Source: the human T2T-CHM13v2.0 reference genome, Homo sapiens | Assembly (NCBI GenBank): GCA_009914755.4 | Contig: CP086569.2 | Location: forward strand, 1,600,001 to 1,664,000 | Length of the DNA: 64,000 nucleotides | Direction of reading: 5' to 3' | Shown: positions 7,796 to 41,800 of the stretch, piece after piece | How positions within the stretch are numbered: the first letter of the stretch is position 1 | Layout: every line of letters starts with the position of its first letter | Notes under the pieces: model-generated | What the model was told of the DNA's origin: nothing | Database searches by the model: none | The model's input: only the letters and a program-made list of their open reading frames with translations | Made by a program: the position numbers and the translations under genes

Positions 7796-8452
7796 TTTTT
7801 TGAAAATATTTATTTTACTTTAAGTTCTGGGATACATCTGCAGAACGTGCAGGTTTGTTATACTGGTGTACATGTGCCATGATGGTTTCCTGCACCTATC
7901 AACCCATCATCTAGGTTTTAAGCCCCACGTGCGTTAGGTATTTGTCCTAATGTTCTCCCTCCCCTCACCCTCAACCCCCTGACAGGCCCTGGTGTATGAT
8001 GTTCCCCTCCCTGTGTCCATGTGATCTCATTGTTCAACTCCTACTTATGAGTGAGAACATGTGGTGTTTGGTTTTCTGTGTCTGTGTTAGTTTGCTGAGA
8101 ATGATGGCTTCCAGCTTCATCCATGTCCTTGCAAAGGACATGAACTCATTCTTTTTTATGGCTGCTTAGTAATTCATAGTATATATGTGCCACATTTTCT
8201 TTATCCAGTCTATCATTGATGGGCATTTGGGTTGGTTCACTGTTTTTGCTATTGTAAATAGTGCTGCAATAAACATACGTGTGCATGTGTCTTTATGGCA
8301 GAATGATTTACAATACTTTGGGTATTTGCGCAGTAATGGGATTGCTGGGTCAAATGGCATTTCTGGTTCTAGATCCTTGAAGAATTGCCCCACTGTCTTC
8401 CACAATGGTTGAACTAATTTACACTCAACAGTGTAAAAGCGTTCCTATTTGG
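7796..8452 (-). mobile_element. L1 3'-terminal fragment (L1PA-like), 5'-truncated
   Basis: This is the reverse complement of the L1 3' end: tttattttactttaagttctgggatacat..gcagaacgtgcaggtttgtta...gtgagaacatgtggtgtttggttttctg...caataaacatacgtgtgcatgtgtctttat. Confidence 0.85.
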
Positions 8453-32029: not shown

Positions 32030-33560
<1,531 letters not shown>

Positions 33561-33855: not shown

Positions 33856-35045
<1,190 letters not shown>

Positions 35046-35089
35046 GATGTTGGTTTTCATCTCTACTTTTGAGGAATGCTGATCTAGTA

Positions 35090-35490
35090 CATGTAGGGAA
35101 GACTCATGTATTGTCACAACAACCATGAAAGCAAAGGACAGAATCTGGGTGTCAGGGAGTGACATGGGTAGAATTGTGTGCCCTACAACATTAGGTTCAA
35201 GTTCTGACGCCAGGTACCTGTTAACGTGACCTTCTTTGGAAATCAGGTCTCTGCAAATGTAATGAGTCCAGACACCAAGGGAAACGGAGAAGATAAGAAG
35301 CAGAGATTGAGGTAATGCGTCCACCAGCCAAGGAGCACCAAGACGTGCTGGCGACCACCAGATGCTAGCGGGGAGACCTGGAACAGATTCTCCCTCAAAG
35401 CCTCCAGAAGTAAACCAACTCTGTAGACACCTTCATTTCAGACTTCTGGTCTCCAGAGCTGTGAGAGAATCCATTTCTGTTCATTGCAGC
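35090..35490 (+). mobile_element. MaLR-type LTR
   Basis: ...gtgaccttctttggaaatcaggtctctgcaaatgtaatgagtccagacaccaagggaaacggagaag...cagacttctggtctccagagctgtgagagaatccatttctgttcattgcagccac. Confidence 0.5.
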
Positions 35491-35632
35491 CACTTTTTTC
35501 TTTTCTTCCTTCTTTCTTTTCTTTTTTCTTTCTTTCTTTCTTCCTTCCTTCCTTCCTTTCTCTCTCTTTCTCTCTTTCTTCTTTTCCTTCCTTTGCTTCC
35601 TTTCCTTCCTTTCCTTGTTTCTTCTCTCTTTC
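35490..35632. repeat. Complex (TTTC)n/(TTCC)n polypyrimidine tract, the expanded tail of the downstream Alu(-)
   Basis: cttttttcttttcttccttctttcttttcttttttctttctttctttcttccttccttccttcctttctctctc... Confidence 0.85.
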
Positions 35633-35633
35633 T

Positions 35634-35913
35634 GAGATGGAGTTTTGCTCTGTCACCCAGGCTGGAGTGCAGTGGCGCAATCTCGGTTCACTGTGACCTC
35701 TGCCTCCTGGGTTCAAGTGATTCTCCTGCCTCAGCTTCCTGAGTAGCTGGGATTACAGGCACAAGCCACCATGCCCGGATAATTTTTTATATTTTTGGTA
35801 TAGACGAGGTTTCACCATGTTGGCCAATCTTGTTTCAAACTCTTGACCTCAAGTCATCCAGCCACCTTGGCCTCCCAAATTCTGAGATAACAGGTGTGAG
35901 CCACTGTGTCTTG
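35634..35913 (-). mobile_element. Alu (antisense)
   Basis: gagatggagttttgctctgtcacccaggctggagtgcagtggcgcaatctcggttcactg...gtgtgagccactgtgtcttgcc. Confidence 0.88.
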
Positions 35914-35989
35914 CCTGAGCCATTTCTTCAGCAGTGATTTTTTTTTTTCATGGCTGCCCTAGCTAAGGAATACCATTACAATGAAAGCT

Positions 35990-37500
35990 GAGCTGCTTAA
36001 GCTACAATTTTTTTTATTACTTATTTATTTACTTTTGTTTCAGTCATTTTTGGAGAACAGGTGGTTTTAGGTTACATGGATAATTTCTTTAGCAGTGATT
36101 TTTGAGATTTTCATGCACCCATCACTCAAGGAATGTACACTGTACTCAATGTGTAGTCTTTTATCCCTCACTCCCCTCCTACCCTTTCCCCCGAGTCCCC
36201 AAAGTCCGTTGTATAATTCTTATGCCTTTGCATCCTCGTAGCTTAGCTCGCACTTATGACTGAGAACGTTTGATATTTAGTTTTCTTATACCCAAGTTAC
36301 TTCACTTGGAATAATGGCCTCCACTTCCATCCATGTTACTGCAAAATACATTATTTTACTCCATTTTATGGGTGAGTAGTATTCCGTGGTGTATATACAC
36401 CACACTTTCTTTATCCACTCCTTGGTTGATGGGGATTTAGGCTGGTGTCATATTTTTGCAATCGCAAATTGTGCTGCTATCAGTTACCACTAAAGAACTC
36501 ATCCATGTAACCTAAAACCACCTGTCCTCCAAAAACTACTGAAACAAAAGTCAATCAATAAATAATAATAAAAGGCAAGTGCCTTTTTTCATATAATGAC
36601 TTCTTTTCCACTGTGTAGATACTCAGTTCTGAGATTGCTGGATCAAATTGTTGATCTACTTTTAGTTCTTCAAGGAACCTCCATACCTGGATCAAATGGT
36701 AGTTCTATTATTAGTTCTTCAAGGAGTCTCCATACCTGGATCAAATGGTAGTTCTAGTATTAGTTCTTTAAGGAGTCTCCATACCTGAATCCAATGGTAG
36801 TTCTACTATTAGTTCTTTAAGGAGTCTCCATACCTGGATCAAATGGTAGTTCTATTATTAGTTCTTTCAGGAATCTCCATACCTGGATCAAATGGTAGTT
36901 CTAGTTTTAGTTCTTCAAGGAGTCTCCATACCTGGATCAAATGGTGGTTCTATTATTAATTCTTCAAGGAATCTCCATACCTGGATCAAATGGTGGTTCT
37001 ATTATTAGTTCTTTAAGGAGTCTCCATACCGGGAACAAATGGTAGTTCTAGTATTAGTTCTTTAAGGAATCTCCGCAGTGGTTTCCATAGTGGTTAAACT
37101 AGTTTACATTCCCACCAGCAGTGTAAAAGTGTTCCCTTTTCACCACATCCACACCAACATCTGTTATTCTTTGATTTTTGAATTATGGCCATTCTTGCAG
37201 GAGTAAGATGGTATCTCACTGTGGTTTTAATTTTCATTTCCCTGATCATTAGTGATGTTGAGCATTTTTTCATATGCTCATTGGACATTCATATATCTAC
37301 TTTTGAGAATTGTCTATTCATGCCCTTTGCCTATGTTTTGATGGGATTGTTTGTTTTTTTTTCCTGCTGATTTGTTTGAGTTCCTTGTAGATTCTGGATG
37401 TTAGTCCTTCGTCGGATTCATAGTTGGGCAAATTTTTCTCCCATTCTGTGAGTTGTGTGTTTACTCTGCTGATTCTTTGTTTTGCTGTACAGAATAAGCT
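35990..37500 (-). mobile_element. Rearranged old L1 (antisense): 3'-end segment 35990-36490, inverted duplicate of its first ~75 bp at 36500-36580, internal 49-bp tandem array 36640-37080, ORF2-antisense segment 37085-37500
   Basis: ttgtttcagtcatttttggagaacaggtggttttaggttacatggat (36025-36072) has its reverse complement at 36505-36575. The body matches the L1 antisense (attccgtggtgtatatacaccacactttctttatccac; tttacattcccaccagcagtgtaaaagtgttcc). Confidence 0.7.
36640..37080. repeat. 49-bp tandem repeat x ~9, derived from L1 ORF2-antisense sequence
   Basis: The unit cctggatcaaatggtagttctattattagttcttcaaggagtctccata derives from L1 'ctgggtcaaatggtatttctagttctagatccttgaggaatcgccac'. Confidence 0.88.
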
Positions 37501-38161
37501 ACAATTTTAAGGAAGAGGATTTGTGGCAACTTACGTAGCTCAGTAAAGAGAGTGAGTAGGACCTCAAAGCATTCTTTAAAGGAGAGAGAGGACATGATCC
37601 AACTTAGACAAAGAGAATGTTCTGGCCACAGAGGCAATTTGGCCAGAAACTAGATAACAGGATGTCAAACTAGATAACAAGGAAGTCTACCTTAATTCAA
37701 TGGCACAAGAGCTTGAAATCATCAAAGAGTCTTTCTGAATACTACGCTAAAGCAATTGCTTTTAATGAATATATTCAGACTTGCCAAGGCTGAGACCTCA
37801 AATACTATCTTGAGGTCTTTAACAGCTATCTGATGCTGTCAATGATTTTGTATATAAAAAGACCTTGGAACAGGAGGTTGCCATTTAGTGAACAGGGTTG
37901 GCAGTATACCTTCCCGCCTGCTTTGCATAGTGACTCATTGTCTACTCAACGAGGATTCTTAATAATCATGTCATTGGTGACACATAGGCAGTCAGTGGAT
38001 TTTTTTTTTTAATGACAAGTGGAAAAATGTTAAAAGCCAGCTTTGATTAAAATGTGAGTTAAGCTGGAAAGCTCAGTGAAATCCATCCATGGCTGTATAT
38101 TAAGAACTGTAACCTGCCACTGTGTGTAACACCCGTTATATAAACTCATGTAAAGATTTCA

Positions 38162-38495
<334 letters not shown>

Positions 38496-39137
38496 CTACC
38501 AAGTATGTCTCCGCTGGCAATCCTTGAGAATCAATAGAAGTTATTCCAAAATATAAGCTGGTATAGTGATAAACCTGGTGAAAAGCACCGTGTTTTATAA
38601 TGCAATGTCTAAGCCCACAGTGGCGCCTGTGTCATGGATGGAAACAATTTCCAAGTATGGCAGTGTGGGCTGCAGCTGTTCCACAGAAGATCGTAAAGTA
38701 TATGGAATGGTAAATGCATGGCACGTTTTGTAAAATAATTAAATGAAGCCCAATGCTGCCATCCCTCAGGTCATATTTACATAGATGATTGAGCTGTCTG
38801 ATTCACTGAGGGTTCTCTCTGTGTGTCTCTTTGGTGAAGCAATTTATTCTGCTTTTACAGATTAGATATTTTCTAAGTGACGAAATACAAGTCTTCCAGT
38901 GGCACAATATAAAATCGTATTAAAGAGCATTAAAGCATATAAGCTAACAGCATGCATACTTATCTACAAACTGGTTTCTAAAAATGGAGAAGCATTTTTT
39001 GCTTTCAGATGGAGATTGTGTACTCAGATCTCGAATTCTGTTTCCTTAAAAAATGGTTTAATGAACCCTAATGCATCTACCACTCAGGTTTTAACGATTA
39101 CAAACAGTTATCAATGTGTTTTATTTTTCCATTTTAA

Positions 39138-39526
<389 letters not shown>

Positions 39527-39880
39527 CAACAATACTTTTATCTACTCATCAGTATGTGTTCAAATTTCCCTCAGTCTTAGAAATGACTTTCTGTGGTTGG
39601 TTTCTTTAAATAAAAATGGAAAGAAACTCCACACACTTTAGATGGCTGATTTGTCTCATAAAAGTTTTTTGATTTGTAATAATTCACCATCTTCCCTTTA
39701 TTTTGTCCTGATTATATAGTCCATATCCCTTGTGACTTTCACCATAGAAGGACTTTATCCCTGTCTTCAAAAGCCATAAAAATAGTCCCCGTTGCTAACT
39801 AACAACATTGATGCTTTTGTGACCTAGGAAAGCTTCTAAGTGTAGCTTTGATCTCCTTTGTTGAGACAGAAATGGGCTGA

Positions 39881-40339
<459 letters not shown>

Positions 40340-41065
40340 TGACTACAGTTTCTGTACATTGGACCAATTTGGCACATTTCTTTATATAGGACAATCCATG
40401 TCCATTTACCTGTGTTCTGTGAGACAGAGGAAGCCTGGACTTCTGCTATCCTGCCCTTGCTGGGAATGAGCAGGGTTGTACCTGCACTCATCATGGAATA
40501 AGCACTAAAGAAACAAAGCTACAACAGAAGATGTCCTCTACTGCAGGGCACCTTACATTCCAATCCTCCAATATGGCAGCGAGTCAAAATCTCAAAAGAC
40601 CTGAGTGCCTTCTGCGTAAGTCCCCGTAGGCTTCTAGTATTCATTTTACAAGTATACTGATGCTCTCAGTTGATGCTGAGGGGGTGGCTGTTCATGAAGA
40701 TGATGGAATTGGCTTTGGCAGAGGTCTCTCTTTGACCATCTAGAGGCACTGTTGCTTATCTATCAGGAAACGGAGGGAGGCACTGGGAATTTGAACTCGA
40801 GCTCTGGAGTTCTTCCATGCAGCTGTGTTTACGTATCATCAAGCACCGATTCATTGCCCGTTGGGACAGAGGAGAATCAGGCCTGGTCTGGCATCATTGC
40901 CGGGTGGGTGTGAAATGCCACTTCTACCGAGACCAACTGGAAATGAAAGATCGTCAACAGTCAAAAAGGTCACTGCATAAATGCCTGTGAAGTCCAAGTA
41001 ACTGTCAGAGACAGAATACGCTTTGCAGCGGAGAGTTTTCCAGGAAAGAAAAATGGTCTCTGTGA

Positions 41066-41800
<735 letters not shown>

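What the first reader, a model, noticed from the sequence alone, without database searches (positions are those of the whole stretch)
35990..37500. Rearranged L1 with an inverted terminal duplication and an internal 49-bp VNTR derived from ORF2 sequence
Within one old antisense L1, the first ~75 bp (36010-36085) reappear as a reverse-complement copy at 36500-36580. Together they flank a ~400-bp L1 segment, an inverted-repeat 'stem' able to form a large hairpin. Immediately after, a 49-bp unit derived from the L1 segment 'ctgggtcaaatggtatttctagttctagatccttgaggaatcgccac' is amplified ~9 times (36640-37080), then the L1 sequence resumes. A minisatellite born inside L1 coding sequence, next to an inverted duplication, points to a replication-based (fork stalling/template switching) origin.
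Basis: partly seen in the sequence, partly recalled or inferred. Interest (0 to 1): 0.55.

Follow-up and report, generated by a model that had tools for sequence, protein, structure and literature searches.

The report
Decayed L1 with internal repeat rearrangements
This is an old, dead L1 retrotransposon fragment that later gained an inverted copy of its own tail end and a nine-copy 49-bp tandem repeat; the structure is real but is an ordinary kind of junk-DNA scar with no sign of function.

Summary
Window 36012-37494 (minus strand) is a 5'-truncated L1. It encodes ORF2p residues 1019-1258, then the 3'UTR and an A-rich tail. It is flanked by a perfect 14-bp target-site duplication at a TTTT/AA site.

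Three secondary changes sit in or next to it:
1. A 49-bp x 9 minisatellite (36638-37078). Its unit is an exact 49-nt L1 segment (ORF2 codons ~1157-1173) bounded by CTG microhomology.
2. A 90-nt piece (36484-36573), an inverted copy of the L1's last ~62 nt plus its A-rich tail. It has no target-site duplication, and the host lacks ~8-12 nt at that site. It shares rare variants and the tail pattern with the element's own 3' end, so the two are sister sequences, not two unrelated L1s.

The 84-bp stem is predicted to form in single-stranded DNA.

The FoSTeS story linking the inverted repeat to the VNTR is possible but unsupported. TE-derived minisatellites are common. The inverted piece could equally be fold-back break repair or a reverse-transcriptase by-product. 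A second human assembly is identical here. Interest is low.

The parts
35998..36011 (.). Left copy of the L1 target-site duplication, TAAGCTACAATTTT
   Evidence: Perfect 14/14 direct repeat with 37495-37508, directly abutting the poly-T start of the antisense L1. The pre-insertion site reads ...CAATTTT/AAGG, which fits the L1 endonuclease consensus TTTT/AA.
36012..37494 (-). 5'-truncated L1 (ORF2 codon 1019 to stop, 3'UTR, A-rich tail), including the two internal additions listed below
   Evidence: phmmer match to L1 ORF2p 1019-1258, E = 8e-62. 72-84% identical to 20 independent L1 copies of the same 3'-end family. 10.8-14.2% diverged from their consensus.
36012..36036 (-). Patterned A-rich tail of the host L1 (sense: AAAAGTAAATAAATAAGTAATAAAA...)
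   Evidence: Read directly from the sequence. The pattern is not part of the family consensus 3' end.
36009..36098 (-). Left arm of the inverted repeat: the host L1's own 3' terminus plus tail (the donor or sister of the inverted piece)
36093..36483 (-). Spacer between the arms: L1 3'UTR and the last ORF2 codons (~1197 to stop), in normal orientation
   Evidence: ORF2p 1205-1258 maps to 36447-36289 on the minus strand, the same orientation as the rest of the element.
36484..36573 (+). Inverted 90-nt copy of the last ~62 nt of the L1 3'UTR plus a 28-nt A-rich tail, inserted between ORF2 codons ~1193 and ~1197
   Evidence: 84-nt arm at 89%, extended to 36484 by a match to the family consensus. 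No target-site duplication. Family copies have 12 nt between the flanking points where the host keeps about 4. Shares 5 rare states and the tail pattern with the host 3' end.
36638..37078 (-). 49-bp minisatellite, nine units, derived from ORF2 codons ~1157-1173
   Evidence: TRF, unit table, alignment to the family consensus showing an exact 49-nt source segment bounded by CTG on both sides.
37495..37508 (.). Right copy of the L1 target-site duplication
35922..35971 (-). Flank piece 'P': a gapped ~50-nt direct copy of host L1 3'UTR segment 36083-36134, lying outside the target-site duplication
   Evidence: Smith-Waterman score 45 against 23.6 +/- 3.1 in dinucleotide shuffles, reached by 0 of 1000. 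P = host but not family at 10 positions, P = family but not host at 1.

Best explanation
The region is a mutational record, not a working device. Step 1 (shown): an L1 of an old primate/mammalian family inserted on the minus strand by classical target-primed reverse transcription. It was 5'-truncated at ORF2 codon 1019 and left a 14-bp target-site duplication at a TTTT/AA nick site. Step 2 (structure shown, mechanism inferred): a 90-nt inverted copy of this element's own 3' terminus, including the A-rich tail, was placed about 390 bp further into the element. This happened at a break-like site with no target-site duplication, no endonuclease motif and a loss of ~8-12 nt. My preferred mechanism is a self-templated fold-back. 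A 3' end at the break (window ~36483, plus strand) snapped back onto the same strand near 36098 and was extended through the L1 terminus into the T-run. The new end was then joined without homology to the other side of the break. This could have been DNA-polymerase fold-back repair after insertion, or the L1 reverse transcriptase switching template during integration. The data do not separate these two. Step 3 (shown): a 49-nt ORF2 segment bounded by CTG...CTG was duplicated and then amplified to nine head-to-tail units by slippage or unequal exchange. The edge unit keeps the ancestral bases, and the amplified units descend from a slightly mutated copy. Step 4 (shown but unexplained): a ~50-nt direct copy of the neighbouring 3'UTR segment sits in the flank. 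Nothing suggests selection or function.
For: L1 identity and insertion hallmarks. Inverted piece: arms 89% complementary. They share 5 identical non-consensus states in 63 body columns, where host x family gives at most 2, inverted piece x family at most 1, and only 1 of 190 family pairs reaches 5. They have the same AAAAGT.AAT.AATAA.TAATAAAA tail, which is not in the family consensus. The host flanks are contiguous in six other copies apart from 12 nt. VNTR: TRF. Edge units match the array consensus at 41-42 of 49 positions, interior units at 45-48 of 49. The unit is an exact 49-nt family segment flanked by CTG on both sides, and unit 1 retains GATCTACTTTT where units 2-9 have GTTCTA.TATT. 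Local copying happens at this locus: flank piece P carries 10 host-specific states. Neither rearrangement is a family trait: 0 of 20 other copies have either. Fold-back templated inverted insertions at breaks, with one end joined by NHEJ, are documented in yeast (PMC11724301). TE-derived minisatellites make up at least 23% of human mini/satellites, some initiated between short flanking direct repeats (PMC3389668).
Against: A DNA-level fold-back gives no reason for the copy to end within the terminal A-run of the L1; that endpoint is what a reverse-transcriptase product would show. I found no convincing microhomology at either junction of the inverted piece. Documented fold-back insertions are mostly 5-34 bp and templated right next to the break (PMC11724301), whereas this one is 90 nt and templated ~390 bp away. 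Timing is unresolved. Arm divergence (11-13%) is lower than twice the host's divergence from the family consensus (2 x ~12%), which suggests a post-insertion origin. But a CpG that decayed in opposite directions in the two arms (TG versus CA) and the perfect target-site duplication suggest an early origin. The shared variants could be sub-lineage markers rather than private ones: one family pair also shares 5 states.
Confidence: 0.7

Rival explanations
1. The inverted piece is an independent, very short L1 cDNA from another RNA of the same sub-lineage, captured at a double-strand break inside the older L1 (endonuclease-independent insertion). It is not a copy of the host's own end.
For: It begins with an A-rich tail and has an intact L1 3' end, as a cDNA would. 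It has no target-site duplication, a small target deletion and a non-TTTT/AA site, features reported for endonuclease-independent insertions (PMC1920257). Sub-lineage sharing does exist in this family: one family pair shares 5 states.
Against: The published criteria for such loci include 3' truncation and absence of a poly(A) tail (PMC1920257), and this piece has both the 3' end and the tail. None of 20 independent copies carries the states at alignment columns 36, 70 or 75 or the tail pattern, so the sub-lineage would have to be rare and yet land inside its sibling. The primer end (...CACTTGCC-3') has no T's to pair with poly(A).
Confidence: 0.18
2. One reading: one replication-based event or process (fork stalling and template switching, possibly driven by the hairpin) produced both the inverted duplication and the minisatellite.
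For: Three local copies of L1 segments lie within 700 bp (the inverted piece, the VNTR and flank piece P), and P and the VNTR lie on either side of the inverted repeat. The stem is thermodynamically strong in single-stranded DNA. Template switching is a documented source of inverted copies and hairpins (PMC5453318, PMC8794818).
Against: There is no junction or sequence evidence tying the events together. The VNTR junction is a CTG/CTG direct-repeat duplication, while the inverted piece has blunt junctions and a deletion. Apparent ages differ: arms 11-13%, interior units about 7%. The amplified units descend from an already mutated copy. With a 397-nt spacer and 11% mismatch, the repeat is in the range where inverted repeats are weak inducers of instability in ordinary duplex DNA (PMC10164571, abstract).
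Confidence: 0.1
3. The structure is inherited: the source L1 already carried the inverted piece and/or the array, and this copy simply retrotransposed it.
For: It would explain why the piece sits cleanly inside otherwise contiguous L1 sequence.
Against: None of the six family copies spanning the insertion site has the inverted piece, and 0 of 20 carry a second copy of their own 3' end or an internal minisatellite. The array units have diverged from each other in situ, with edge units oldest.
Confidence: 0.02

Closest known systems
Transposable-element-derived minisatellites (Ahmed & Liang 2012, PMC3389668; Alu-derived arrays of Jurka & Gentles, cited there)
   Same: A head-to-tail array whose unit is an internal TE segment. 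A short direct repeat (here CTG) flanks the source segment. Expansion was by local duplication after insertion.
   Different: The flanking repeat is only 3 bp, against 5-20 bp in that paper's class. The source is L1 ORF2 coding sequence of an old element, whereas that survey found younger TEs to be the more frequent sources.
L1 twin priming and dual priming 5' inversions (Ostertag & Kazazian 2001, from my own knowledge; Meyer et al. 2010, PMC2837659)
   Same: An L1 insertion that contains an inverted L1 segment. In the dual-priming and poly(A)-priming variants, the inverted part starts with the reverse-transcribed poly(A).
   Different: In those cases the inverted part lies at the 5' end, against the target-site duplication, and replaces upstream L1 sequence. 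Here it is internal, flanked on both sides by contiguous L1 (minus ~8-12 nt), and duplicates the element's own 3' end.
Endonuclease-independent (non-classical) L1 insertion at double-strand breaks (Morrish 2002, from my own knowledge; Sen et al. 2007, PMC1920257)
   Same: No target-site duplication, a small target deletion, and a site unlike TTTT/A.
   Different: Those loci are 3'-truncated and lack a poly(A) tail. This piece has an intact 3' end and tail and matches its host's private variants.
Fold-back or template-switch templated inverted insertions (PMC11724301; short template switches, PMC5453318; FoSTeS/MMBIR, from my own knowledge)
   Same: An inverted copy of nearby sequence inserted at a break-like site with a small loss. 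The orientation and order fit a 3' end folding back on its own strand. One junction is joined without homology.
   Different: Larger (90 nt against mostly 5-34 bp) and templated ~390 bp away rather than next to the break. The template endpoint coincides with the L1 A-tail.

Membership tests
LINE-1 insertion by target-primed reverse transcription | Encodes L1 ORF2p-homologous sequence followed by a 3'UTR | tested here: met
   ORF2p residues 1019-1258, E = 8e-62. 3'UTR homologous to 20 other L1 copies.
LINE-1 insertion by target-primed reverse transcription | A-rich 3' tail abutting a 7-20-bp target-site duplication | tested here: met
   Tail at 36012-36036. 14/14 duplication at 35998-36011 and 37495-37508.
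LINE-1 insertion by target-primed reverse transcription | First-strand nick at a TTTT/AA-like site | tested here: met
   The reconstructed empty site reads CAATTTT/AAGGAAG.
Minisatellite / VNTR | Head-to-tail array of 10-100-bp units | tested here: met
   Period 49, 8.9 copies, 90% matches, 0% indels.
Minisatellite / VNTR | Copy number varies between individuals | not testable with these tools
   Only two assemblies are available (the window and L001), and they are identical. No population long-read data.
L1 twin priming / dual priming inversion | [quoted passage not shown] | tested here: not met
   The inverted piece at 36484-36573 has 921 nt of sense L1 (36574-37494, VNTR included) between it and the 5' duplication.
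L1 twin priming / dual priming inversion | Two L1 fragments in opposite orientation within one pair of target-site duplications | tested here: met
Endonuclease-independent L1 insertion (NCLI criteria of PMC1920257), applied to the 90-nt piece | No target-site duplication, and a site diverging from the L1 endonuclease consensus | tested here: met
   Flanks are ...GCTATCAG | piece | GGCAAGTGCC..., with no repeat. The implied nick, TGCC/AC, is unlike TTTT/AA.
Endonuclease-independent L1 insertion (NCLI criteria of PMC1920257), applied to the 90-nt piece | 3' truncation and absence of a poly(A) tail | tested here: not met
   The piece runs to the L1 terminus and carries a 28-nt A-rich tail.
Template-switch / fold-back templated insertion | The insert is a copy of nearby sequence and carries donor-specific variants | tested here: met
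   5 shared rare states plus the tail pattern. The donor lies 390-475 bp away.
Template-switch / fold-back templated insertion | Microhomology at the switch junctions | tested here: inconclusive
   No clear microhomology found by inspection of either junction. About 12% decay since the event could have erased 2-4-nt homologies.
Template-switch / fold-back templated insertion | The pre-event allele (L1 without the insert) exists in an outgroup | not testable with these tools
   No primate genomes are available. The exact-protein look-up returned only one human contig.

The most novel reading that the evidence does not exclude
The inverted piece is a by-product of L1 integration itself. While copying cDNA or RNA, the L1 reverse transcriptase switched to the poly(A)/poly(T) end of its own template, copied ~90 nt, and returned to almost the same place. 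That would be an internal 'snap-back' class of L1 insertion not covered by twin or dual priming. The resulting intra-element hairpin then made the locus prone to further template switches, giving the flank copy P on one side and the minisatellite on the other.
Probability: 0.12. Interest if true: 0.45.

Novelty: new member of a known kind. Interest (0 to 1): 0.2.

Why it matters
It matters little on its own. It is one more case of a minisatellite born inside a transposable element, and of an old L1 scarred by small templated rearrangements. It has modest value as a worked example, because the inner copy of the inverted repeat includes the element's own A-rich tail and has break-repair-like junctions. 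Such structures would be mis-annotated as two nested L1s. A genome-wide count of them could show whether L1 reverse transcriptase or ordinary fold-back repair makes them, and whether intra-element hairpins seed nearby tandem repeats. If the 441-bp array varies in length in people, it is an unremarkable intronic or intergenic VNTR marker.

Tried and rejected
1. My first collection scan (genome contigs) used a pattern with one base missing. Those loci should be ignored.
2. The search for related loci with the decayed 64-aa ORF in viral contigs found nothing.
3. Rfam at gathering threshold over 35000-38500 found no known RNA family, so the hairpin is not an annotated miRNA or other RNA.
4. Primate orthologs and other human haplotypes: the exact-protein look-up gave only one contig (L001), identical to the window here. 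Presence/absence dating and VNTR polymorphism could therefore not be tested.
5. Dating the VNTR by a CpG shared by all units: rejected, because both TG and CA states occur across family copies and CA is also seen in a younger L1 in the window.
6. Inversion of the spacer between staggered breaks, which would also give inverted duplications: rejected, because the 397-nt spacer has the same orientation as the rest of the L1.
7. A 161-bp tandem duplication to explain flank piece P: rejected, because only the first ~50-60 nt are similar.
8. P as an independent older L1 fragment: rejected, because it carries 10 host-specific states against 1 family state.
9. Subfamily assignment (L1PB versus L1MA): not possible without Dfam/RepeatMasker. 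My recollection that this 3' end is L1MA-like is memory only.

Full report
OBSERVATION. The repeat finder reports an inverted pair at 36009-36092 and 36490-36573: 84 nt, 89% complementary, 397 nt apart. An explicit ungapped comparison gives 75/84. Tandem Repeats Finder reports 36638-37074 with period 49, 8.9 copies, 90% matches, no indels and score 685. In register there are nine units, 36638-37078. Folded as single-stranded DNA, 36000-36585 forms the long stem in both the minimum-energy and centroid structures: -91.7 kcal/mol against -43.1 +/- 4.3 for 100 dinucleotide shuffles, z = -11.3. Rfam finds no known RNA family in 35000-38500.

WHAT THE ELEMENT IS. Minus-strand reading-frame fragments from 37494 down to 36289 match human L1 ORF2p residues 1019-1258 of 1275 (8uw3_A, E = 8e-62). 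The element runs from 37494 (5' truncation at codon 1019) to an A-rich tail ending at 36012. It is flanked by a perfect 14-bp direct repeat, TAAGCTACAATTTT (35998-36011 and 37495-37508). The reconstructed empty site, CAATTTT/AAGG, fits the L1 endonuclease preference. This is therefore a classical target-primed insertion. Flanking Alus show the host is a primate. A 6.2-kb JGI metagenome contig (L001) is the same locus at 99.9% identity and is identical from 34996 to 38477. That gives a second, independent assembly with the same array and the same inverted repeat.

FAMILY COPIES FOR COMPARISON. No human genome or Dfam was available. I scanned metagenome contigs for the 24-nt core shared by both arms, leaving four positions free, and obtained 32 host-contamination loci. 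They collapse to 20 independent L1 copies. An earlier scan of genome contigs was wasted on a mistyped pattern. The host L1 is 72-84% identical to these copies and 14.2% (3' part) or 10.8% (ORF2 part) diverged from their consensus, like the copies themselves at 8-16%. I could not assign a subfamily.

THE MINISATELLITE. In the family consensus the source is ...GATTG[CTG]GATTGAATGGTAGATCTACTTTTAGTTCTTTAAGGAATCTCCATA[CTG]TTTTCC.... The repeated unit is exactly the 49 nt from the first CTG up to the second CTG, so a 3-bp direct repeat bounds it. It covers ORF2 codons ~1157-1173, by my count from the alignment. The two edge units are the most diverged from the array consensus (41 and 42 of 49), and interior units are 45-48 of 49. 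Unit 1 keeps the ancestral GATCTACTTTT, while units 2-9 share GTTCTA.TATT. The amplified units therefore descend from a copy that had already mutated, and expansion followed the initial state rather than coming with the L1. Interior units differ pairwise by about 7%. This matches what is described for TE-derived minisatellites, which make up at least 23% of human mini/satellites. Some of those are initiated between short flanking direct repeats and are then expanded locally (PMC3389668).

THE INVERTED PIECE. Against the family consensus, the right arm extends to 36484 (TTACCA against consensus TCACCA), giving 90 nt. It is the last ~62 nt of the L1 3'UTR plus a 28-nt A-rich tail, in sense orientation on the plus strand, and so inverted relative to its host. 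In six family copies, the host sequences on either side of the piece are contiguous except for 12 nt, of which the host keeps about 4. The piece is therefore a clean insertion between ORF2 codons ~1193 and ~1197. It has no target-site duplication, the host lost ~8-12 nt, and the site does not resemble TTTT/AA.

ARE THE ARMS SISTERS? The alternative is an unrelated short L1 nested in an older one. Over 63 body columns the two arms share 5 identical non-consensus states. Host against any family copy gives at most 2, and the piece against any family copy gives at most 1. Among 190 family pairs, only one reaches 5. The states at alignment columns 36, 70 and 75 occur in 0 of 20 copies. Both arms also carry the same patterned tail (CAAAAGT.AAT.AATAA.TAATAAAA), which is not the family 3' end. 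Neither this piece nor an internal minisatellite occurs in the 20 other copies, so these are not family traits.

A THIRD COPY. Following up a 21-nt repeat, I found that 35922-35971 is a gapped ~50-nt direct copy of L1 segment 36083-36134. This piece lies in the flank, 26 nt outside the left target-site duplication and abutting a minus-strand Alu. Its score is 45 against 23.6 +/- 3.1 in shuffles, reached by 0 of 1000. It agrees with the host against the family at 10 positions and with the family against the host at 1, so it derives from this very L1 or has been converted by it. Its donor interval abuts that of the inverted piece. Target-primed reverse transcription does not explain a copy outside the duplication, and I leave it unexplained. 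It does show that DNA-level local copying occurred at this locus.

TIMING. This is unresolved.
- The arms differ by 10.7% (84 nt) to 13% (90 nt). If the host's ~12% divergence is all post-insertion, copies made at insertion should differ by ~20-24%, which points to a later event.
- If about half of that divergence is sub-lineage difference (the shared states), the arms fit an origin at insertion.
- The dinucleotide at columns 11-12 is TG in the host, CA in the piece, and mostly CA with some TG in the family. That pattern fits a CpG still intact when the copy was made.
- The perfect 14-bp duplication also fits a younger element.
- The neighbouring Alu, whose degenerate duplication seems to include the end of the flank copy, is 12.1% diverged. 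That fits an old L1.

MECHANISM. The orientation and order of the piece fit two mirror-image models.
- Fold-back from the 3'UTR side. A plus-strand 3' end at ~36483 anneals near 36098 on its own strand, is extended to the T-run, and is joined to the other end without homology. Templated inverted insertions made this way, with one end joined by NHEJ, are documented at yeast breaks, though they are mostly 5-34 bp and templated next to the break (PMC11724301). Short template switches are known in human and ape genomes (PMC5453318, PMC7954356).
- Reverse transcription from the ORF2 side, starting on a poly(A). This explains naturally why the piece starts in the tail. The template could be the same RNA during integration (a double template switch) or a sibling RNA captured at a break.

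FIT TO KNOWN L1 CLASSES. Twin and dual priming put the inverted part at the 5' end against the duplication (PMC2837659), and that feature is not met here. The published criteria for endonuclease-independent insertions require 3' truncation and no tail (PMC1920257), which is also not met. I therefore file the piece as a self-templated inverted insertion of undetermined enzymology. My rough split is 70% for a copy of the element's own end or own RNA, 18% for an independent sibling cDNA at a break, and the remainder for other explanations.

THE PROPOSED LINK BETWEEN HAIRPIN AND VNTR. I found no evidence for it. The junction types differ, the apparent ages differ, and the array grew from an already mutated unit. 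An 84-bp repeat with 11% mismatch and a 397-nt spacer is in the range where distance and divergence reduce instability in ordinary duplex DNA, although such limits relax in long single-stranded regions (PMC10164571). The positions of the flank copy and the array on either side of the repeat are suggestive, but this is a single locus.

VERDICT. This is a decayed L1 with ordinary secondary rearrangements and no sign of function: a new member of known kinds. The one mildly unusual point is the internal inverted copy of the element's own tail end. Orthologous loci and a genome-wide survey would settle its origin.

Noticed in passing
window 35922-35971 (possibly to 35983): A ~50-60-nt direct, gapped copy of host L1 3'UTR segment 36083-36134 lies in the flank, outside the L1's target-site duplication. 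It carries 10 host-specific states. It is a mosaic of perfect blocks (20/21 core) and a badly diverged middle. Target-primed insertion does not explain it.
   Followed up: partly
window 35493-35633 and 35634-35912: A minus-strand Alu, 12.1% diverged from the window's Alu consensus, whose A-tail has grown into a ~140-bp compound (CTTT)n/(CTTCC)n microsatellite. Its degenerate target-site duplication (35471-35492 against 35917-35939) appears to include the left end of the flank L1 copy.
   Followed up: partly
whole window: Very high Alu density: 46 near-full-length Alu matches in 64 kb, with divergence from their consensus of 6.6-15.6%.
   Followed up: no
L030 (Ga0115852_104532), about 489-673 against 675-1048: Another L1 of the same family whose ORF2 part is inverted relative to its 3' end. 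It looks like a classical twin-priming 5' inversion and makes a useful contrast to the internal inverted piece studied here.
   Followed up: no
L014, L015, L016, L019, L027, L028, L031, L033, L034, L035, L039, L040, L042: Thirteen metagenome contigs from different records are the same primate (presumably human) L1 locus with identical flanks. This is recurrent host-DNA contamination assembled in many samples, and it would bias any consensus if not collapsed.
   Followed up: yes
L001 (JGI Ga0326364_1159905), whole contig = window 34996-41182: A 6.2-kb contig in a JGI metagenome is the same locus (99.9% identical to the window). The gene calls on it, including 212-aa and 236-aa 'proteins', are spurious ORFs across Alu, microsatellite and L1 sequence.
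   Followed up: partly
window 8043-8445 and 32035-32202: Two other L1 fragments in the window cover the same ORF2 C-terminal and 3' region (71-73% identical to the host). The one at 8330-8450 has the 49-bp source segment in single copy.
   Followed up: no
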